Positions 12,001 to 18,000 of a stretch of DNA of 64,000 bases are shown piece by piece (the stretch's first letter is position 1; every line of letters starts with the position of its first letter). This DNA comes from Escherichia coli (GTDB lineage: Bacteria > Pseudomonadota > Gammaproteobacteria > Enterobacterales > Enterobacteriaceae). The stretch lies in NCBI RefSeq assembly GCF_016026235.1, contig NZ_CP065613.1; one strand, 5' to 3'. The position numbers were made by a program.

Positions 12001-15000
12001 AATCGATGTTGAGTATGCCATCGCTTTGTGATGACGCGATTCAAGTCGAACGACACCTTCAGTTGAAGAACTCAACGTCCATCCGATAGAGCTGTCTGGA
12101 AATACCTTGGGTGCACGAGACCAGAATTCTGTCAATATCTTGAAGCGCCAAGAAGTCCCCCAGTGAGGGTCTAGCCCAATGAAGTTAGGTGCAATCGCAC
12201 CTTCGACAAGCACACCATGCATGTCTTTGAATGATGCAAACAGGTCTACTGTTCCACGGGAAAATGGGCTGAGCGTCCCCTCTTGAGCATCTGTAAATTT
12301 CCAATAACTTTCTAATTCTTCCAGATCGTTGAGACTATCAAAAATCGTGATGAAATCCGCTAATGGAAACAAACGAGTTGGCTTTGAGGGGAGATTGATG
12401 GAATTAAACGCAGTACCCGCGAGTGTAACGACAATAACGATGTGAAGCTCATCGACGCTAGGTTCTGCACCAACTCTAGATAGAGAAAGGAAACGTCCAT
12501 CATCAAGACGGAAGAAAATCGGCGATCCACGACTCACCTTGGCGTATATGCTTTCCGCTGCGTTTGACAGGCGGTCATTAGATGTATGGTCACATGTGCA
12601 AATGAGATATATCCCAGAATTACCCAGTATAATACAACTGATAGGCAGGTCTTTGCAGGCGGTGCCGTCAACATACAGAGTCAAAGGCCCTATAAGGGTT
12701 CTTTGGAATCGCTCAGCGACAAACTCTGCAAGTTTCCTGTGCGTAGAGGGGCTAATCCCGTTCAGATTTTTGTTAGCCCAATGGTCAATAATGAGACCCG
12801 GTGCACTGCGTACTGACATTGGTATCCATACCCTATCCATCTCGACAGCAAGGAAAGGTAGCGCCATGCCTTGCATCACTGCATTTCCGAACGCATCCGG
12901 TTTCAGCGGTGCTTTGAAAGTGCCAACACGAGTATCGAACGTACACCCTGCTTTCTTTCGGCGGTTCGCTAGCTCATTGCCAAGTTGTTGAAGCAAAGAC
13001 TTGCAAGTCAACCAGAAGTCTTCAGTAGCTAGTTCAACATCAGCACATTGGGCCTCGGTGTTGACAGAGAGCATCAACTCAGGAATCGATTCGATGATCT
13101 GCGCTTGCAGCGCAATGGCAAGATCCATATGGGCTTGTGCTTCTGGAATATGAGCATAGGTAATGCGAAATGCTTCTACGAAGTCAGACATTCTCTCAAT
13201 GCAACTCCCGTAGAACATAGGGACGAAGTCTTGACCAAGCCGTACTTTGATTTGCCCCCAATCAGCCTCGGGGGAAAAATCCTCAAGCATTGGGAATTCA
13301 GGCCATGATGCGTATAATTCTTTTGTAAATACTTTAAAATCTACATAGCTATCAATCGATATACCTACCTGAGACTCAAATGGCAGCTCTAAAAGGACAC
13401 ACCAAGCAAAAATATGCTTTATGGGGCTACCTGTATTGGCTGGCCAGAGTTCGGAAGTAAATAATGCAACTGCTACGTCGAGGGTTTTGTATCGGCGAAA
13501 TAAATTCTGGGTGGCTTCCAGATGCTTACAAAAGTATGTGTCTTCACCTACCCCATTCGTAAACAATTCACGATATCTGGACATATCGTGTATCAAAGAA
13601 TCATAATCAACCTTTTGCTCTGTTAGTTTTCTTTCCCGCTTTTCACGTGACTTCCTACCCACTTCATATCCTCCCTGTATGCATACGTTGACAGTCTATA
13701 CGGTATCGAAGCATAGAAATTATTAATGCGTATCATAATGAATATCTTGAGTCACTTACTGTACCGCCCTCACAAAAGTGCATAGCCTCAAACTATCAAA
13801 CACATCCGACAAATTGTTACATTTATATTATTGCAACCATAAAACCCAATAATTTGATAAATAATAAATTTTTCTTATTTCAACTAGTCACACTTCAGAT
13901 TGGTTTACATAACTTTAGCGCAAATCACTGTTTGCCAATAATCACTTCTTCAAAAGCGGCTTTCACATTTTCATCCTCCGCTATCCGCCCTGATCAGTTA
14001 CCACAGCTAATGCAGACAATGCGAAATGCCAACATTATTTTGCCTACTCGATGCTTGTTCATGTGGCAACTTCTAACTATCTCACGACCCGCAGAAGCGG
14101 CAGAAGCTCGTTGGGATGAGATCGATTTTGAAGCTAAAGAATGGAAAATTCCTGCAGCTCGAATGAAGATGAACCGGGACCATACGGTTCCGCTAGGTTC
14201 GCGAGGCCTGAGCTTGGCGCAGCTATCGCCAGCAGAATCACCGCTGATGCAAGTGGCGCAGGCGCAGTTAAAGCATCTGTTACCCGCACATCTGATGGCT
14301 TCATTTTCGCCGTTTTTTAGTCAAGCGGGACACACTTCCTAGCCACAGCAAACGGGCGCTGAGAGAGTGGGAATGGCCGCAGAAGGTGCGGGTGGTCGCG
14401 GCCAGTCAGCCGCTCCTACCACCGGTGATCCAGGAAGGCATGTTTGACGCGGTCAGTGAAGCGCTTTACCAAGACCCTTGGCTGAACATTGATTACCGCA
14501 ATGCTCAAGATACTCGCCGTCAGGCGGAGGTGATGCCCCTTGGTTTTAGTCCTACAGGGCTCACGTCTGCAAAGCTAATGGGAAGAGTGTGGTACTCACT
14601 CTCTCCCATATAATCTTCCAAACTATGGCGAAACAGGCGTTAGCGGTTTTTTTACTTTGCTCAAAATCCAGGCATCAATCTCGGATTCTAGCCACCCCAC
14701 CGTCTTTGCTCCCAGTTTCACCCTTTGGGGAAATGTCGGATCATGACGATCAGAACTAGGGTCAAGCCAGTCGTATACCATTGAACGCCCAATGCCTAAC
14801 TTCTTGACAAGTGCAGGTACACGAAGGATTTTTACAGACTTTGGTTCCATTAAAGAGCTTCCTCTCTTGGTTTGCTTAGGATGGAAGTCAGACTATCTAC
14901 TGATGCAACTGTGCGACATACGGCTGCAGTACTTCATTTTTTACGGAGCTTAACTGATTGAATAATGGATAATTTTAGTTTTAACGATTTTATCGTTGAT

Positions 15001-18000
15001 TTGAAAACTATGTTCAATAATAAGAGCGCAAGCTTGTCCAATAGACTCATGGCGGCTGACCGGGAGCAGGAAAAGGTTATTTCAGATGCAAATGAATATC
15101 ATGAGTTTGTACTATCGCTGGTTGAAAGCATGCTTACGAACCCGGTAGTACGCCGTAGGTTTGATGATCAAGTCTACAGAATGTCATTTGATGAACCAGA
15201 CACGGTTAGCGAAACTATAAGTGAGCTTGTTTTCCTGGCTGATGTTAACTGGCAGCTAGGGCTTGGGCTTCTGAATACGAATAAAAATGAAGCGATAAAG
15301 TGCCTACTCTTAGCTATTGAATACCTTGATTACTGTCGTGGTCTTGAAGATCAAGAATTATGGCAACAGCAACAGACCACAAAATTAGATGTTCCGGCGC
15401 AGAGGGGTAGAAGTAAAGCTGCTCGCTTTGATCCCATTAAAGCCAAAATTATCAGGCTTTTGCAGGAAGCTTGCCCCTCAGACGGATGGGATACTAAATC
15501 AGAAGCTTTGAAGAGCATAGAGAATGGGATTAATGAACTGAAATGGCCATCTGCACGTGATCAGAACAATCTGCCCAAAACCGGAGCTGAAATATTTGCA
15601 ATGAAGATACGCCAGGTTGAGGTCTGGTCAAGTCAGGATCAGAAAATTAAAGCTGCATTTGATAGTGTCGTAAAGCCTAAAAAATAGATGTACTTGAGGT
15701 CTAATATGCTGGCAGTTTAAGCCTTAAAAGCCAAACTGCCATCTCACAACGCGCATGTTACCTGCGGCTCATTCCAATTGATCGATATCCATCGTCATAA
15801 CTCTTGGTGTGGTCTTTAGCCATATACTCCATGCGCTTCAGTAATTCTTTAACCTGTTGCATATAATTAGGGAGTTTTCTGTTTAAATAAAAACAACCGT
15901 TCTCAGTCATATTCGCCAGACCTGTATATTGCTCTGTATCCAAGCCTAACGCACTACACCATGCCTGCTGGATTAATGCGTATAAACTGTCATCGGAGTT
16001 ATAGTTCCCGGCACCATGGTAGAAGTCTTTATTCAGTAGCAGTAATACATGGTAATGTTTACGGCGGTTAAGTTCACCTACTTCACGTACCCATGCATAC
16101 CGTAATCTATTAGATCGGTTACGTTTCCATCGTAGGTTCTTACGTTGGCAATCGACCAGCAACTTAGCTTTCAGTGATTCAATAAAACGAGTAACCTCTT
16201 TGTTCGAATCACCATACTGATAGTGGCGGGGAAAACGTAAATCAACACGTAGTGCTAACGTACGTGGAAACTCGTCTACTGCATTACGAATAACATCATA
16301 AAATGCTTGCTGGTAGTAAGCATTCAAGGAATTATGCTGCATGTTAATACCTGAATAAATAATTAATATTGAGGTGAGTAAGAATAAATAACCATACAAT
16401 TAACCATCATGATAATGTAGCATGCAGAAGCCATGATAATAGCAGCGCTTCATAGTAGCCCTCCTGAGCCCCAAAGACCTTTATTGCCTGTTGCATGTAC
16501 CATTCACACAGCAACCAGGCATTTTCGACATATTCTTTTTTTATCGCGCATTCACCTTCAGTATAGTAACTCAGCAGCGCGGCCAGACGTGCAACATTAT
16601 TCGGAAGTTTGGATGCAAAATCATTCATGTTTGCATATTCCCTGTCGGGGCCAATACTGCTTTCTATTTCATCGTGAATTTCTTTCCACGCCGCCAAGGC
16701 TGAGGGCTCGAATGATAAACATGTCTGATGCCCAGTCCCGTGTTGAGAAGCACTTTTTTCTATCAGTTCATTCATACGTTGGTAGAAGCGATTAAGATTC
16801 TCCAGCTTACCTGACTGAGGGGAAGATAGACGACTAATAAAACGCTGGCCCTGTGTCGATAATTTCGCATCAATATACAAGATAAAACAGCGTGCAAACA
16901 AACCACTCCCGCGTGCATGTTCGCCCTTGCGTTTTAAAAAATCGTAAAATATTGCTTTTTGTACCATGACTAACAACGTAATACGTCCATTCTTAATCGT
17001 AAAACTTGGCCCTGTTTTCCGATTAACATGAAAACTTTCATCATCCCATATGGAGTTCATAAATCCCAAATCACTCATAGTCCGTCTGCTAAGTATATTA
17101 GCCCCCTCATCAGTTATTAGTCCTGTTTGTGGCGAGTGGGTATACATTTCAAACTGCAGGGCTTCAGGGGTGACATTATTATAAATATACCTTTTGGCTT
17201 TCGGTTGTACTGGCTTTTCAGCAGATAACTGTTCTAACTGCCGTGAAAGTTTATCTGTACATAGTCCTTTCATAGTGTCTTTATCAATGCATTTCAGAAG
17301 TGCATTTTCTTTCTTGCTCCATATTTTAGACTGGACCTCATGTTCTTTCTTCTGCTTTTCATACTGGAGTAATACACGCAGATCATGCTCATGAAAAGGT
17401 TTTAACAGCAGTTTTTCCACCGCTGTTTTTCTCTCGCCAGAATCTGCTATCACGAATGAATACAATGACACCGGAGACTTCATGGTGTCTGTTATTTTTA
17501 CATTAATCAGGCTCTGACACGCCAGTGATAATCCACTCAGCAATGTTAATGCAATCATTTCCCCCGGGGCTCGTGTGCATTCCTCAATATCAAAAATAGT
17601 TTCAAGCAATGACGAGGGGAAAGCGTTAAATGGAAACTCCTGCATGACAATACCTCCAGAAAATGTTGTTTTGATAATTGAAAACTAATCTGGAATGCGA
17701 TCGCAAGTCAATATGAAAAACTGATATTTAGTCTAGTCAGACAGCGTTGGACTAAATTAGTCAAGTGGCAGCTTCTGGTATTTTCATTCGCCTGTGCTTT
17801 CTTTATAAAAACACAGACGAGTAATGTCAGTACGGAGATATACTGCCAGGTAATATGATTTAAATAATTCTCAGATATATATAACCTCAGTGAATTTCCA
17901 CCCGTTTTAATCCAACAGGTCATCCCCACCGGATGGCCTTTTTTCATTCAGAGGCCGATATGAAACATCCCTCGGGTTATACCCTTATCCGTCGCCATCT

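What the first reader, a model, noticed from the sequence alone, without database searches (positions are those of the whole stretch)
14623..17645. Rearranged AlpA / YfjI-like / HUH-protein module with an orphan 240-aa gene
In canonical CP4-57-type islands alpA-yfjI-yfjJ follow the integrase on the same strand. Here all three are on the opposite strand to the integrase, alpA lies downstream of rather than upstream of the yfjI/yfjJ-like pair, and an unrelated 240-aa ORF on the plus strand separates them. The YfjJ-like protein keeps an HUH motif (HYHVLLLL), so it may still be a functional rolling-circle-type initiator, hinting at satellite-like mobilisation.
Basis: partly seen in the sequence, partly recalled or inferred. 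Interest (0 to 1): 0.4.

Follow-up and report, generated by a model that had tools for sequence, protein, structure and literature searches.

The report
Damaged replication module of ssrA island
The four genes are the standard excision-control and replication backbone of a widespread lineage of E. coli/enterobacterial genomic islands, not a one-off rearrangement, and this copy has lost part of its helicase gene and a conserved origin-like DNA stretch, so it is an ordinary, decaying island.

Summary

- **The 240-aa "orphan" is not unrelated.** It is a distant homologue of YfjH, the gene that sits divergently next to alpA in K-12 CP4-57.
- **The gene order is not a private rearrangement.** The order Int(+)–cargo–AlpA(−)–YfjH-like(+)–Gp2/YfjJ(−)–DUF3987/YfjI(−)–GTPase(+) recurs intact in Yersinia, Citrobacter, Pantoea and Enterobacter. 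The Gp2–DUF3987 pair diverges from the GTPase gene wherever that gene is present, in the loci whose Gp2 is at least 58% identical.
- **This copy is damaged.** A 592-bp deletion, also present on 15 public contigs, removes the conserved last 79 codons of yfjI. It also removes 353 of the 437 bp of the AT-rich yfjI–yfjJ spacer.
- **The lost spacer contains the module's best-conserved sequence.** This is an iteron-like element, TGTCGGTATAGTAATATA, which I read as a candidate origin.

Verdict: an ordinary, decaying member of a known island family. The conserved non-coding element is the only mildly new observation.

The parts
76..687 (+). C-terminal part of intA, the ssrA-specific tyrosine integrase. 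The window begins inside the gene.
   Evidence: ORF. Synteny with PK8568, where ssrA-intA precede the same cargo.
1163..13662 (.). Variable cargo between the integrase and alpA: five ORFs, including a 1475-aa NACHT/STAND protein and a 1260-aa protein. This is probably anti-phage cargo and is not part of the conserved backbone.
   Evidence: Weak PADLOC hits (Avs1b 4e-11, nuclease effector) for the 1475-aa protein. Other genera carry different cargo at the same position.
13980..14216 (+). Relic of a second IntA-type integrase. Only the codons matching residues 213-291 of 413 remain.
   Evidence: tblastn gives 85% aa identity to the island's own IntA and nothing outside this stretch. Pfam Phage_integrase is partial. 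RefSeq marks it as a pseudogene in PK8568.
14571..14622 (.). Left edge of the conserved backbone. Homology with the Enterobacter ludwigii island stops about 50 bp beyond the alpA stop codon.
   Evidence: Pairwise alignment: a few mismatches per 100 columns up to about 14571, unalignable beyond that point.
14623..14850 (-). alpA, an AlpA/Vis-type excision regulator of 75 aa.
   Evidence: Pfam PF05930 E 7.6e-17. 51% identity to K-12 AlpA. PHROG 'excisionase and transcriptional regulator'.
14965..15687 (+). yfjH-like gene of 240 aa, divergent from alpA. Function unknown; predicted all-helical.
   Evidence: BLASTP to K-12 YfjH: 25% identity over 172 aa, E 9e-14. ORF240 hits phrog_19089 at E 5.8e-16 and K-12 YfjH at E 1.4e-112. 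AF2 pLDDT 81, no PDB fold match. Orthologues at 77-90% identity include Citrobacter, Yersinia and Pantoea proteins, and a partial Enterobacter hormaechei protein.
15758..16342 (-). YagK/YfjJ ('inovirus Gp2') family protein of 194 aa. Predicted Rep-class HUH endonuclease with H96-Y-H98 and Y173-x-x-K176.
16343..16426 (.). The 84 bp that remain of the 437-bp yfjI-yfjJ spacer. Only the Gp2-proximal arm of an imperfect inverted repeat is retained.
   Evidence: Alignment with PK8568, sequence, inverted repeat I1 in L001.
16426..16427 (.). Junction of a 592-bp deletion (PK8568 locus L001 18828-19419), with 2-bp GA microhomology. It removes motif B1, motif B2 with its iterons, and the last 79 codons of yfjI.
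   Evidence: B1 and B2 lie at L001 19107-19119 and 19006-19023. B2 has no match inside the window's island.
16407..17645 (-). Truncated yfjI (DUF3987 helicase family): 412 aa instead of 485. The ATPase core is kept, the conserved C-terminal domain is lost, and 6 foreign residues sit at the end.
   Evidence: Pfam DUF3987 covers residues 26-392. Alignment with 10 orthologues shows the lost 79 aa are 46-73% identical among them. DUF3987 has been shown to be a 5'-3' helicase (PMC11724360). The exact 412-aa product is on 15 public contigs.
17933..18847 (+). YfjP/YkfA-type GTPase, divergent from yfjI. It is the first gene of the conserved right-hand backbone.
   Evidence: Pfam MMR_HSR1. It diverges from DUF3987 in every lineage locus where it is present.
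20138..23102 (+). Remaining backbone: DUF932, antirestriction, RadC, DUF987, and the YeeU/CbeA-CbtA toxin-antitoxin pair.
   Evidence: ORFs. RefSeq names in PK8568. HMM survey.
23289..23301 (+). attR remnant, a partial copy of the ssrA 3' end. It is 4 bp shorter than attR in K-12, TW01221, Serratia and Citrobacter.

Best explanation
The region is the conserved backbone of one lineage of ssrA (tmRNA)-integrated, non-autonomous genomic islands of the CP4-57 kind.

**Layout.** The lineage's normal layout is integrase, then a variable cargo slot, then alpA(−), a yfjH-like gene(+), an HUH endonuclease gene (YagK/YfjJ family, −), a DUF3987 helicase gene (yfjI, −), and a divergent GTPase gene followed by DUF932, antirestriction, RadC and CbeA/CbtA genes. 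The layout differs from K-12 CP4-57 because it belongs to another sub-lineage, not because this island was scrambled.

**Inferred mechanism.** This part is inferred, not shown. AlpA triggers IntA-mediated excision, as shown for K-12 AlpA and for PICMI. The HUH protein then binds and nicks the excised circle at the AT-rich, iteron-bearing spacer between yfjI and yfjJ, whose core is TGTCGGTATAGTAATATA. The YfjI helicase unwinds the DNA, so the host polymerase amplifies the island by rolling-circle replication. The amplified DNA would then be available for packaging by a helper phage or for other transfer.

**State of this copy.** In this window the apparatus is damaged. A 592-bp deletion has removed the conserved spacer elements and the conserved C-terminal domain of the helicase. 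A second integrase survives only as a 79-codon relic, and attR carries a 4-bp deletion. This copy is most likely a decaying, replication-incompetent island.
For: **Shown**
- Gene identities.
- Location at ssrA, from synteny with PK8568 and K-12.
- The same full order in Yersinia with smpB and a single integrase, in Citrobacter and in Pantoea.
- The same order in E. ludwigii, with only a few mismatches per 100 aligned bases from the Gp2 3' end to just past alpA.
- Architecture tally over 63 loci: all 22 loci fetched through Gp2 with at least 58% identity carry DUF3987 directly upstream of Gp2, and the GTPase gene diverges from DUF3987 in the 17 where it is present and in range. The full window-type order appears in 10 loci. 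Six of those were fetched through the 240-aa protein itself, so this is not a frequency.
- HUH and Y-x-x-K are invariant in 33 family members down to 34% identity.
- The AF2 model (pLDDT 86) is closest to Rep-class HUH nucleases. HUH precedes Tyr, as in Reps.
- PHROG labels YfjI a DNA helicase, and a DUF3987 protein is a 5'-3' helicase in vitro (PMC11724360).
- The DUF3987 'prim' gene is needed for replication of the int-alpA-prim satellite PICMI115 (PMC10803314).
- B2 is the most conserved 14-, 18- and 22-nt stretch of the whole 2.5-kb yfjI-yfjJ region in 13 non-redundant loci (0.98 against 0.95 for the best coding stretch). It sits in the least conserved segment (mean 0.48).
- The B2 core is repeated at a 17-bp period, twice or three times. 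The spacer is 28-31% GC.
- A B2-like core also precedes K-12 yfjJ, type-A loci and the Vibrio cholerae homologues; the Burkholderiaceae locus has a weaker 4-mismatch version.
- The deletion and what it removes. It is real, because the exact truncated protein is on 15 contigs.
Against: - No experiment shows nicking or replication by any YagK/YfjJ protein.
- No small plasmid or phage uses it as its sole initiator. Plasmid hits are on large, mostly conjugative plasmids, and the single phage record is an unverified low-coverage contig.
- B2 contains a TATAGT hexamer that scores as a −10 element, so it could be a promoter/operator rather than an origin.
- The truncated helicase keeps its ATPase core, and Gp2 may still be co-transcribed with it, so residual activity in trans cannot be excluded.
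- AlpA-dependent excision was not tested for this island, and attL is outside the window.
Confidence: 0.6

Rival explanations
1. This is a one-off rearrangement of a CP4-57-type alpA-yfjI-yfjJ operon, with an unrelated gene inserted. The HUH protein is still a working rolling-circle initiator that gives this island satellite-like mobility.
For: The order differs from K-12. The HUH motif is intact. Related islands act as satellites (PMC10803314, PMC12595487).
Against: The same order is found in at least five genera. The 'inserted' gene is the YfjH homologue that also flanks alpA in K-12. No inverted repeats or IS elements flank the segment. This copy lacks the conserved spacer elements and the helicase C-terminus.
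Confidence: 0.05
2. The HUH protein is a relaxase-like nickase and the conserved spacer is an oriT. The island would be an integrative mobilizable element transferred as single-stranded DNA by a co-resident conjugative system. The downstream antirestriction, DUF932 and RadC genes would act as a leading region.
For: The backbone carries genes typical of plasmid leading regions. Gp2 homologues sit on 66 plasmids, 41 of them conjugative. A single conserved site per island fits an oriT as well as an origin.
Confidence: 0.2
3. The conserved spacer elements are only the promoter/operator of yfjJ. The YfjJ-family protein would be a DNA-binding regulator, for example an autorepressor or a helper-phage sensor, rather than an active nuclease.
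For: B2 holds TATAGT with a weak −35 at 17 bp, and B1 lies inside another promoter-like site. No conserved hairpin surrounds B2.
Against: Invariance of both histidines and of the Tyr/Lys pair over sequences only 34% identical argues for catalysis. An 18-nt block more conserved than any coding stretch, with copy number varying at a fixed 17-bp period, is more like iterons than a promoter. The number of promoter-like matches is no higher than in shuffled sequence.
Confidence: 0.12
4. The 592-bp deletion is an assembly artefact, and the module in this strain is in fact intact.
For: None of the 5,426 complete RefSeq E. coli genomes shows the junction. All ten close matches carry the extra 592 bp.
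Against: The exact 412-aa truncated product, including its 6 junction-derived residues, is on 15 contigs under several independent NCBI accessions. One of those contigs is 5.07 Mb long.
Confidence: 0.03

Closest known systems
CP4-57 cryptic prophage of E. coli K-12 (intA-yfjH-alpA-yfjI-yfjJ ... yfjP ... yfjZ/ypjF)
   Same: Same chromosomal site (ssrA). Same integrase type. It shares the gene families AlpA, YfjH, YfjI/DUF3987, YfjJ, GTPase, DUF932, antirestriction, RadC, DUF987 and CbtA-type TA. It has the same attR core and is followed by ypjA. A B2-like motif lies upstream of yfjJ.
   Different: The proteins are only 25-51% identical. In K-12 alpA-yfjI-yfjJ run with the integrase and the cargo lies after yfjJ. 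Here yfjJ-yfjI run against the integrase, next to the GTPase gene, and the cargo lies between int and alpA. This copy has a truncated yfjI and has lost the spacer.
tmRNA-integrated genomic islands I23/I44/I55 of Pseudomonas, transduced by a jumbo phage (PMC12595487)
   Same: Integration at the tmRNA gene. Integrase at one end, then defence cargo, then a conserved region with RadC, an 'inovirus Gp2-like' gene and alpA. No transfer genes of their own.
   Different: A different genus and different backbone genes (YqaJ, methyltransferase). alpA is the last gene of the element. No DUF3987 helicase is reported. Transfer has been shown experimentally there and not here.
PICMI satellites of Vibrionaceae (PMC10803314)
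   Same: The core trio is integrase, AlpA and a DUF3987 protein. AlpA is sufficient for excision, and the DUF3987 gene is needed for replication of the excised element.
   Different: PICMI elements are about six genes long, integrate next to fis and have no HUH gene. The present island is over 23 kb, sits at ssrA, and pairs the helicase with an HUH protein.
Rep-class HUH endonucleases (inovirus G2P / PF23343; SIRV1 ORF119; parvovirus NS1/Rep; RepB of pMV158)
   Different: There is no detectable sequence match to any solved structure. It is not encoded by a virus or small plasmid, and its helicase partner is a separate DUF3987 protein rather than a fused SF3 domain. Activity is untested.

Membership tests
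CP4-57-type ssrA genomic island | Integrated at the 3' end of ssrA, with an IntA-type tyrosine integrase next to it | tested here: met
   The window starts inside intA. In PK8568, 99.9% identical over the 4.4-kb query, ssrA-intA precede the same cargo. K-12 has the same layout.
CP4-57-type ssrA genomic island | AlpA-family excision regulator | tested here: met
   PF05930 E 7.6e-17. 51% identity to K-12 AlpA.
CP4-57-type ssrA genomic island | attR: a partial repeat of the ssrA 3' end at the far border | tested here: inconclusive
   A remnant is present at 23289-23301, but it is 4 bp shorter than in four other islands. attL lies outside the window.
CP4-57-type ssrA genomic island | Backbone genes: YfjI, YfjJ, GTPase, DUF932, antirestriction, RadC, DUF987, CbeA/CbtA | tested here: met
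   All are found, by Pfam, by HMMs built here, or by RefSeq names in PK8568. yfjI is truncated.
HUH endonuclease superfamily, Rep class | HUH metal-binding motif | tested here: met
   H96-Y-H98. Both histidines are invariant in 33 sequences.
HUH endonuclease superfamily, Rep class | Catalytic tyrosine motif (Y-x-x-K) C-terminal to HUH | tested here: met
   Y173 and K176 are invariant.
HUH endonuclease superfamily, Rep class | HUH nuclease fold | tested here: met
HUH endonuclease superfamily, Rep class | Site-specific nicking with a covalent 5'-phosphotyrosine link at a cognate origin | not testable with these tools
   Only a candidate site (B2/iterons) was identified in relatives. It is deleted in the window.
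DUF3987 helicase family (YfjI; AgaPH; PICMI Prim) | Full-length DUF3987 ATPase domain | tested here: met
   PF13148 E 7.3e-82, profile positions 2-363 of 364. PHROG 'DNA helicase' E 2e-49 for the intact form.
DUF3987 helicase family (YfjI; AgaPH; PICMI Prim) | Conserved C-terminal small domain | tested here: not met
   The last 79 residues are replaced by 6 unrelated ones. Orthologues conserve this part at 46-73% identity.
PICMI phage satellites | int + alpA + DUF3987 'prim' co-localised | tested here: met
   All three are present on the island.
PICMI phage satellites | Minimal size (about six genes) and integration next to fis | tested here: not met
   The island spans more than 23 kb of the window and sits at ssrA. 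The criteria are from PMC10803314.
P4-like satellites | Capsid-hijacking genes (sid, psu, delta) and an alpha primase-helicase | tested here: not met
   None is annotated among the island's genes in PK8568. No Pfam hit of that kind was found for the proteins scanned. Not every cargo ORF was scanned.
Inovirus (source of the name 'Gp2 family') | Filamentous-phage genome context (coat, assembly and ssDNA-binding genes) | tested here: not met
   Neighbours are island backbone genes in all 63 loci. Only one unverified hit turned up in 50,697 phage records.

The most novel reading that the evidence does not exclude
The YagK/YfjJ HUH protein, the conserved 18-nt iteron-like element upstream of its gene (consensus TGTYGGTATAGTAATATA), and in many lineages a DUF3987 helicase may together form a so-far uncharacterised replication origin and initiator system. 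I found the element from Vibrio and Morganellaceae to Escherichia, including upstream of K-12 yfjJ, and in weaker form in a Burkholderiaceae locus. The system would be shared by CP4-57-like, tmRNA-type defence islands and would amplify them after excision for hitch-hiking on phages. The window's strain would then be a natural origin-deletion mutant.
Probability: 0.35. Interest if true: 0.55.

Novelty: new member of a known kind. Interest (0 to 1): 0.25.

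Why it matters
It is a normal architecture of a known island family, seen here in a decaying copy.

The by-product has some value. Defence-carrying islands at tmRNA and tRNA genes are abundant, and at least some move as phage satellites, but how they replicate after excision is not known. A conserved HUH protein, a helicase and an iteron-like site give a concrete, testable candidate for that step. Natural deletion variants such as this one would serve as ready-made controls.

The result is also a caution against treating the K-12 gene order as "canonical". 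By megablast, that order is present in only 384 of 5,426 complete E. coli genomes.

Tried and rejected
- **Structured RNA or known sRNA in the yfjI-yfjJ spacer.** The Rfam E-value scan found only a spurious miRNA hit. RNAalifold on 13 sequences found no conserved structure and no covariation. Rejected.
- **Inverted repeats or IS elements flanking alpA-ORF240 that could explain an inversion.** Only short chance-level repeats were found.
- **FDAARGOS_943 as evidence that alpA-ORF240 is a separable module.** Its partial match is due to IS-mediated truncation and is uninformative.
- **NCBIfam models.** No hits for AlpA, ORF240, Gp2 or YfjI.
- **Sequence search of the Gp2 family profile against PDB chains.** No hit at E ≤ 1.
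- **Fold of ORF240.** The confident all-helical model has no meaningful Foldseek match in the PDB (best E 0.12, TM about 0.2). Function remains unknown.
- **Small rolling-circle plasmids or phages that use a YfjJ-type protein.** None was found. Plasmid hits are on large plasmids, and the only phage record (OR844780, 4.5 kb, coverage 3.7) is unverified and probably host DNA.
- **The 18-mer in IMG/VR.** There were 7 hits. Only 2 carry the module, and both are regions of 50-55-kb contigs. The other 5 show none of the island genes. This gives no evidence of packaging.
- **A second copy of B2 at the island ends (IS91/Helitron-like ori/ter).** It is single-copy in PK8568.
- **Search for the ssrA 3' end in the window with up to 3 mismatches.** No match, because attR differs by indels. 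attR was located by alignment instead.
- **Promoter scan.** The number of matches is no higher than in shuffles, so it does not decide between an origin and a promoter.

Full report
**1. Observation**

The ORF list confirms the four genes at the stated coordinates and strands:
- alpA, 14623-14850 (−).
- A 240-aa ORF, 14965-15687 (+).
- A YfjJ-like ORF, 15758-16399 (−). Its probable ATG is at 16342, giving 194 aa, the length of all orthologues.
- A YfjI-like ORF, 16407-17645 (−).

Pfam assigns Phage_AlpA to the first and nothing to the second. The third gets YagK_YfjJ_C plus REP_ORF2-G2P at 31.2 bits, above the 27.8 cut-off. The fourth gets DUF3987. The string KHYHVLLLLNKD is present.

**2. Where the window lies**

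Megablast against 5,426 complete E. coli genomes finds the 4.4-kb region at 99.8-99.9% identity in nine genomes, and over 79% of its length in a tenth.

In strain PK8568 the annotated context runs as follows:
- smpB, ssrA and intA.
- Five cargo genes, including a NACHT protein.
- An integrase pseudogene fragment.
- An HTH regulator (−), a hypothetical protein (+), an "inovirus Gp2 family" protein (−) and a YfjI family protein (−).
- A GTPase (+), then DUF932, antirestriction, RadC, DUF987, YeeU and CbtA.

The window starts inside intA. After the island it continues into ypjA, a tRNA(CAU) gene that K-12 annotates as ileY, and the glaH-gab operon, as in K-12. This is a CP4-57-type island at ssrA.

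**3. The "orphan" gene**

K-12 CP4-57 reads intA(+) yfjH(−) alpA(+) yfjI(+) yfjJ(+), then cargo, then yfjP. The 240-aa protein aligns with K-12 YfjH over 172 residues at 25% identity, E 9e-14. It hits phrog_19089 at E 5.8e-16, and K-12 YfjH hits the same family at E 1.4e-112.

It is therefore the YfjH counterpart. The divergent alpA/yfjH pair is conserved, not interrupted by foreign DNA.

Its function remains unknown. It has no Pfam, NCBIfam or PADLOC hit. An AlphaFold model is all-helical (pLDDT 81) and has no meaningful PDB neighbour.

**4. Is the order a rearrangement?**

I gathered loci in several ways:
- Neighbourhoods of Gp2 orthologues.
- 36 species-representative loci from a pattern scan of GTDB genomes.
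- Neighbourhoods of ORF240 orthologues.
- The annotated E. coli relatives.
- The two IMG/VR contigs that carry the module.

*The Gp2-DUF3987 pair.* All 22 loci fetched through Gp2 with at least 58% identity to the window's Gp2 carry DUF3987 directly upstream of Gp2 on the same strand. These come from Escherichia, Enterobacter, Serratia, Pectobacterium, Providencia and Morganella, plus unnamed enterobacterial assemblies and metagenome contigs. In 17 of the 22 the GTPase gene lies divergently next to DUF3987. In the other five it is absent or out of range. This is exactly the window's arrangement.

*The complete window order.* AlpA(−), YfjH-like(+), Gp2(−), DUF3987(−), GTPase(+) is present in:
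- Enterobacter ludwigii.
- Citrobacter.
- Pantoea.
- Yersinia. There the locus reads smpB, a single integrase(+), three cargo genes, then the module. The strand relation to the integrase is therefore the same as in the window.

The six loci were fetched through the 240-aa protein itself. The count of ten window-type loci shows recurrence across genera, not a frequency.

*Alignment with E. ludwigii.* The alignment shows only a few mismatches per 100 columns from the Gp2 3' end to about 50 bp past the alpA stop (window ~14571). Beyond that point different cargo begins. alpA therefore marks the edge of the conserved backbone, and the slot between int and alpA is the cargo hot spot.

*Other sub-lineages* arrange the same parts differently:
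- The K-12 type is AlpA-DUF3987-Gp2 on one strand (11 loci).
- Pectobacterium has Int(+), YfjH(−), AlpA(+), cargo, Gp2(−), DUF3987(−).
- Providencia has the alpA pair flipped.
- Several Morganellaceae and other taxa have Gp2 followed or preceded by AlpA without a helicase.

The family is modular. The K-12 order is one variant, found by megablast in 384 of 5,426 complete E. coli genomes.

**5. The HUH protein**

In a 33-sequence alignment reaching 34% identity, H96, H98, Y173 and K176 are invariant. This is the HUH motif followed by Y-x-x-K, the Rep-class order.

I conclude that a Rep-class HUH endonuclease is well supported as a fold assignment. Activity is inferred.

**6. The helicase and the deletion**

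Aligning the window with PK8568 shows that the window lacks 592 bp (L001 18828-19419). The junction is at window 16426|16427, with 2-bp GA microhomology.

The deletion removes the last 79 codons of yfjI, shortening it from 485 to 412 aa with 6 junction-derived residues. It also removes 353 of the 437 bp between yfjI and the Gp2 gene. The lost C-terminal segment is conserved among orthologues at 46-73% identity, which is similar to the rest of the protein.

None of the complete RefSeq genomes has the deletion. The exact 412-aa product is nevertheless on 15 public contigs under several accessions. The deletion is therefore real and marks a sub-lineage.

DUF3987 proteins are 5'-3' helicases (PMC11724360). 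A DUF3987 gene is required for replication of the int-alpA-prim satellite PICMI115 (PMC10803314).

**7. What the deletion took away**

The yfjI-Gp2 spacer is 408-473 bp in most relatives and longer in two Morganellaceae loci. Its GC content is 28-31%. Across taxa it is mostly unalignable, but it contains two blocks that hardly vary:
- B1, CTAATATCAGAGT.
- B2, TGTCGGTATAGTAATATA, which lies 96-100 nt downstream of B1.

Each occurs once per locus.

In 13 non-redundant loci, B2 is the most conserved 14-, 18- and 22-nt stretch of the entire 2.5-kb helicase-spacer-Rep region. It scores 0.98, against 0.95 for the best coding stretch. The spacer as a whole is the least conserved part, at 0.48 against 0.74 and 0.81 for the two genes.

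The core TAGTAATATAT is repeated at a 17-bp period. There are two copies in E. coli PK8568 and E. ludwigii and three in Yersinia.

Recognisable versions of B2 lie upstream of Gp2 genes elsewhere:
- In lineages without a helicase.
- In Vibrio cholerae, with one mismatch.
- In a Burkholderiaceae MAG, with four mismatches.
- In the short K-12-type spacer, including K-12 yfjJ itself, where the core is GATAG(T/G)TAATATAT.

There is no Rfam hit and no conserved RNA fold.

I read this as an iteron-bearing origin, or at least the recognition site of the HUH protein. The alternative is a promoter/operator, since TATAGT scores as a −10 element. I cannot exclude that. Both blocks and the distal arm of an imperfect inverted repeat lie inside the window's deletion.

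**8. Other signs of decay or mosaicism**

- Window 13980-14216 encodes only residues 213-291 of an IntA-type integrase, 85% identical to the island's own IntA. It is absent from the Yersinia, Citrobacter, Pantoea and Enterobacter versions. It is probably a scar of tandem integration or of recombination between islands at the cargo slot.
- The attR remnant (23289-23301) is 4 bp shorter than in K-12, TW01221, Serratia and Citrobacter.

**9. Mechanism**

*Shown:* gene families, architecture, motif conservation, predicted fold, the conserved site, and the deletion.

*From the literature:* AlpA induces IntA-dependent excision of CP4-57 (cited in PMC10107115). AlpA is sufficient for excision, and the DUF3987 gene is needed for replication, in PICMI. 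A tmRNA island with a Gp2-like gene and alpA is transduced by a jumbo phage (PMC12595487).

*Inferred:* after excision, the HUH protein nicks at B2/iterons and YfjI unwinds the DNA. Rolling-circle amplification then feeds packaging by a helper. In this window the cis site and part of the helicase are gone, so this copy is probably unable to replicate. It may also excise poorly.

*Main rival:* a relaxase/oriT role for conjugative mobilisation. The leading-region-like genes downstream favour it, and the Rep-class features and the helicase partner count against it.

**10. Novelty and verdict**

The island family, its genes and its satellite-like behaviour are known. The particular architecture is a conserved variant, routinely annotated but to my knowledge not discussed in the literature. 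The specific claim of a peculiar rearrangement with an orphan gene does not hold. The only mildly new item is the conserved iteron-like element paired with YagK/YfjJ genes. Interest is low (0.25).

Noticed in passing
window 5448-9875 (−) and neighbours 2186-13662: The cargo between intA and alpA includes a 1475-aa NACHT/STAND protein with weak PADLOC hits to Avs1b (E 4e-11) and to N-terminal nuclease effectors. It is flanked by proteins of 1260, 482 and 565 aa that have no family hit. This is possibly an uncharacterised Avs-like defence operon.
   Followed up: partly
window 13980-14216 (+): An internal 79-codon relic of a second IntA-type integrase, 85% identical to the island's own IntA. It lies between the cargo and alpA and is absent from the otherwise syntenic islands of other genera.
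   Followed up: yes
window 23289-23301: The attR remnant ACTCCGCCAGCCA lacks 4 bp that are present in attR of K-12, TW01221, Serratia and Citrobacter islands. This may impair excision.
   Followed up: partly
L065 10615-10659 (Yersinia); L001 18988-19015; L014 9714-9741: The core of the conserved B2 element is tandemly repeated at a 17-bp period, with three copies in Yersinia and two in E. coli PK8568 and E. ludwigii. This is iteron-like copy-number variation.
   Followed up: partly
L001 27006-29341 versus window 23461-28176: The closest complete genome (PK8568) has an IS3 element and an amylase gene fragment where the window has ypjA. None of the close relatives whose flanks were examined here is collinear with the window over the whole island.
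   Followed up: no
L057 (OR844780.1, 'Escherichia phage ECO111 5-P', 4,468 bp): The only phage-database record with a YfjJ homologue (42% identity) is an unverified, unannotated contig of coverage 3.7 from a phage preparation. It is probably co-purified host or island DNA.
   Followed up: partly
plasmid hits H26-H55: YfjJ-family genes at 35-43% identity occur on 66 plasmid records. Most of these are plasmids larger than 200 kb, and 41 are conjugative. A few records are megabase-sized and are probably chromosomes filed as plasmids.
   Followed up: no
L011-L013 (Pectobacterium) and L018-L020 (Providencia): The divergent alpA/yfjH-like pair occurs in the opposite orientation relative to both int and Gp2 in these genera. 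In Pectobacterium the cargo lies between alpA and Gp2 instead of between int and alpA. No mechanism for the flip was identified.
   Followed up: partly
window 31088-31163 (−): ARAGORN calls this tRNA-Met(CAT). In K-12 the tRNA at the syntenic position is annotated ileY, tRNA-Ile(CAU).
   Followed up: no
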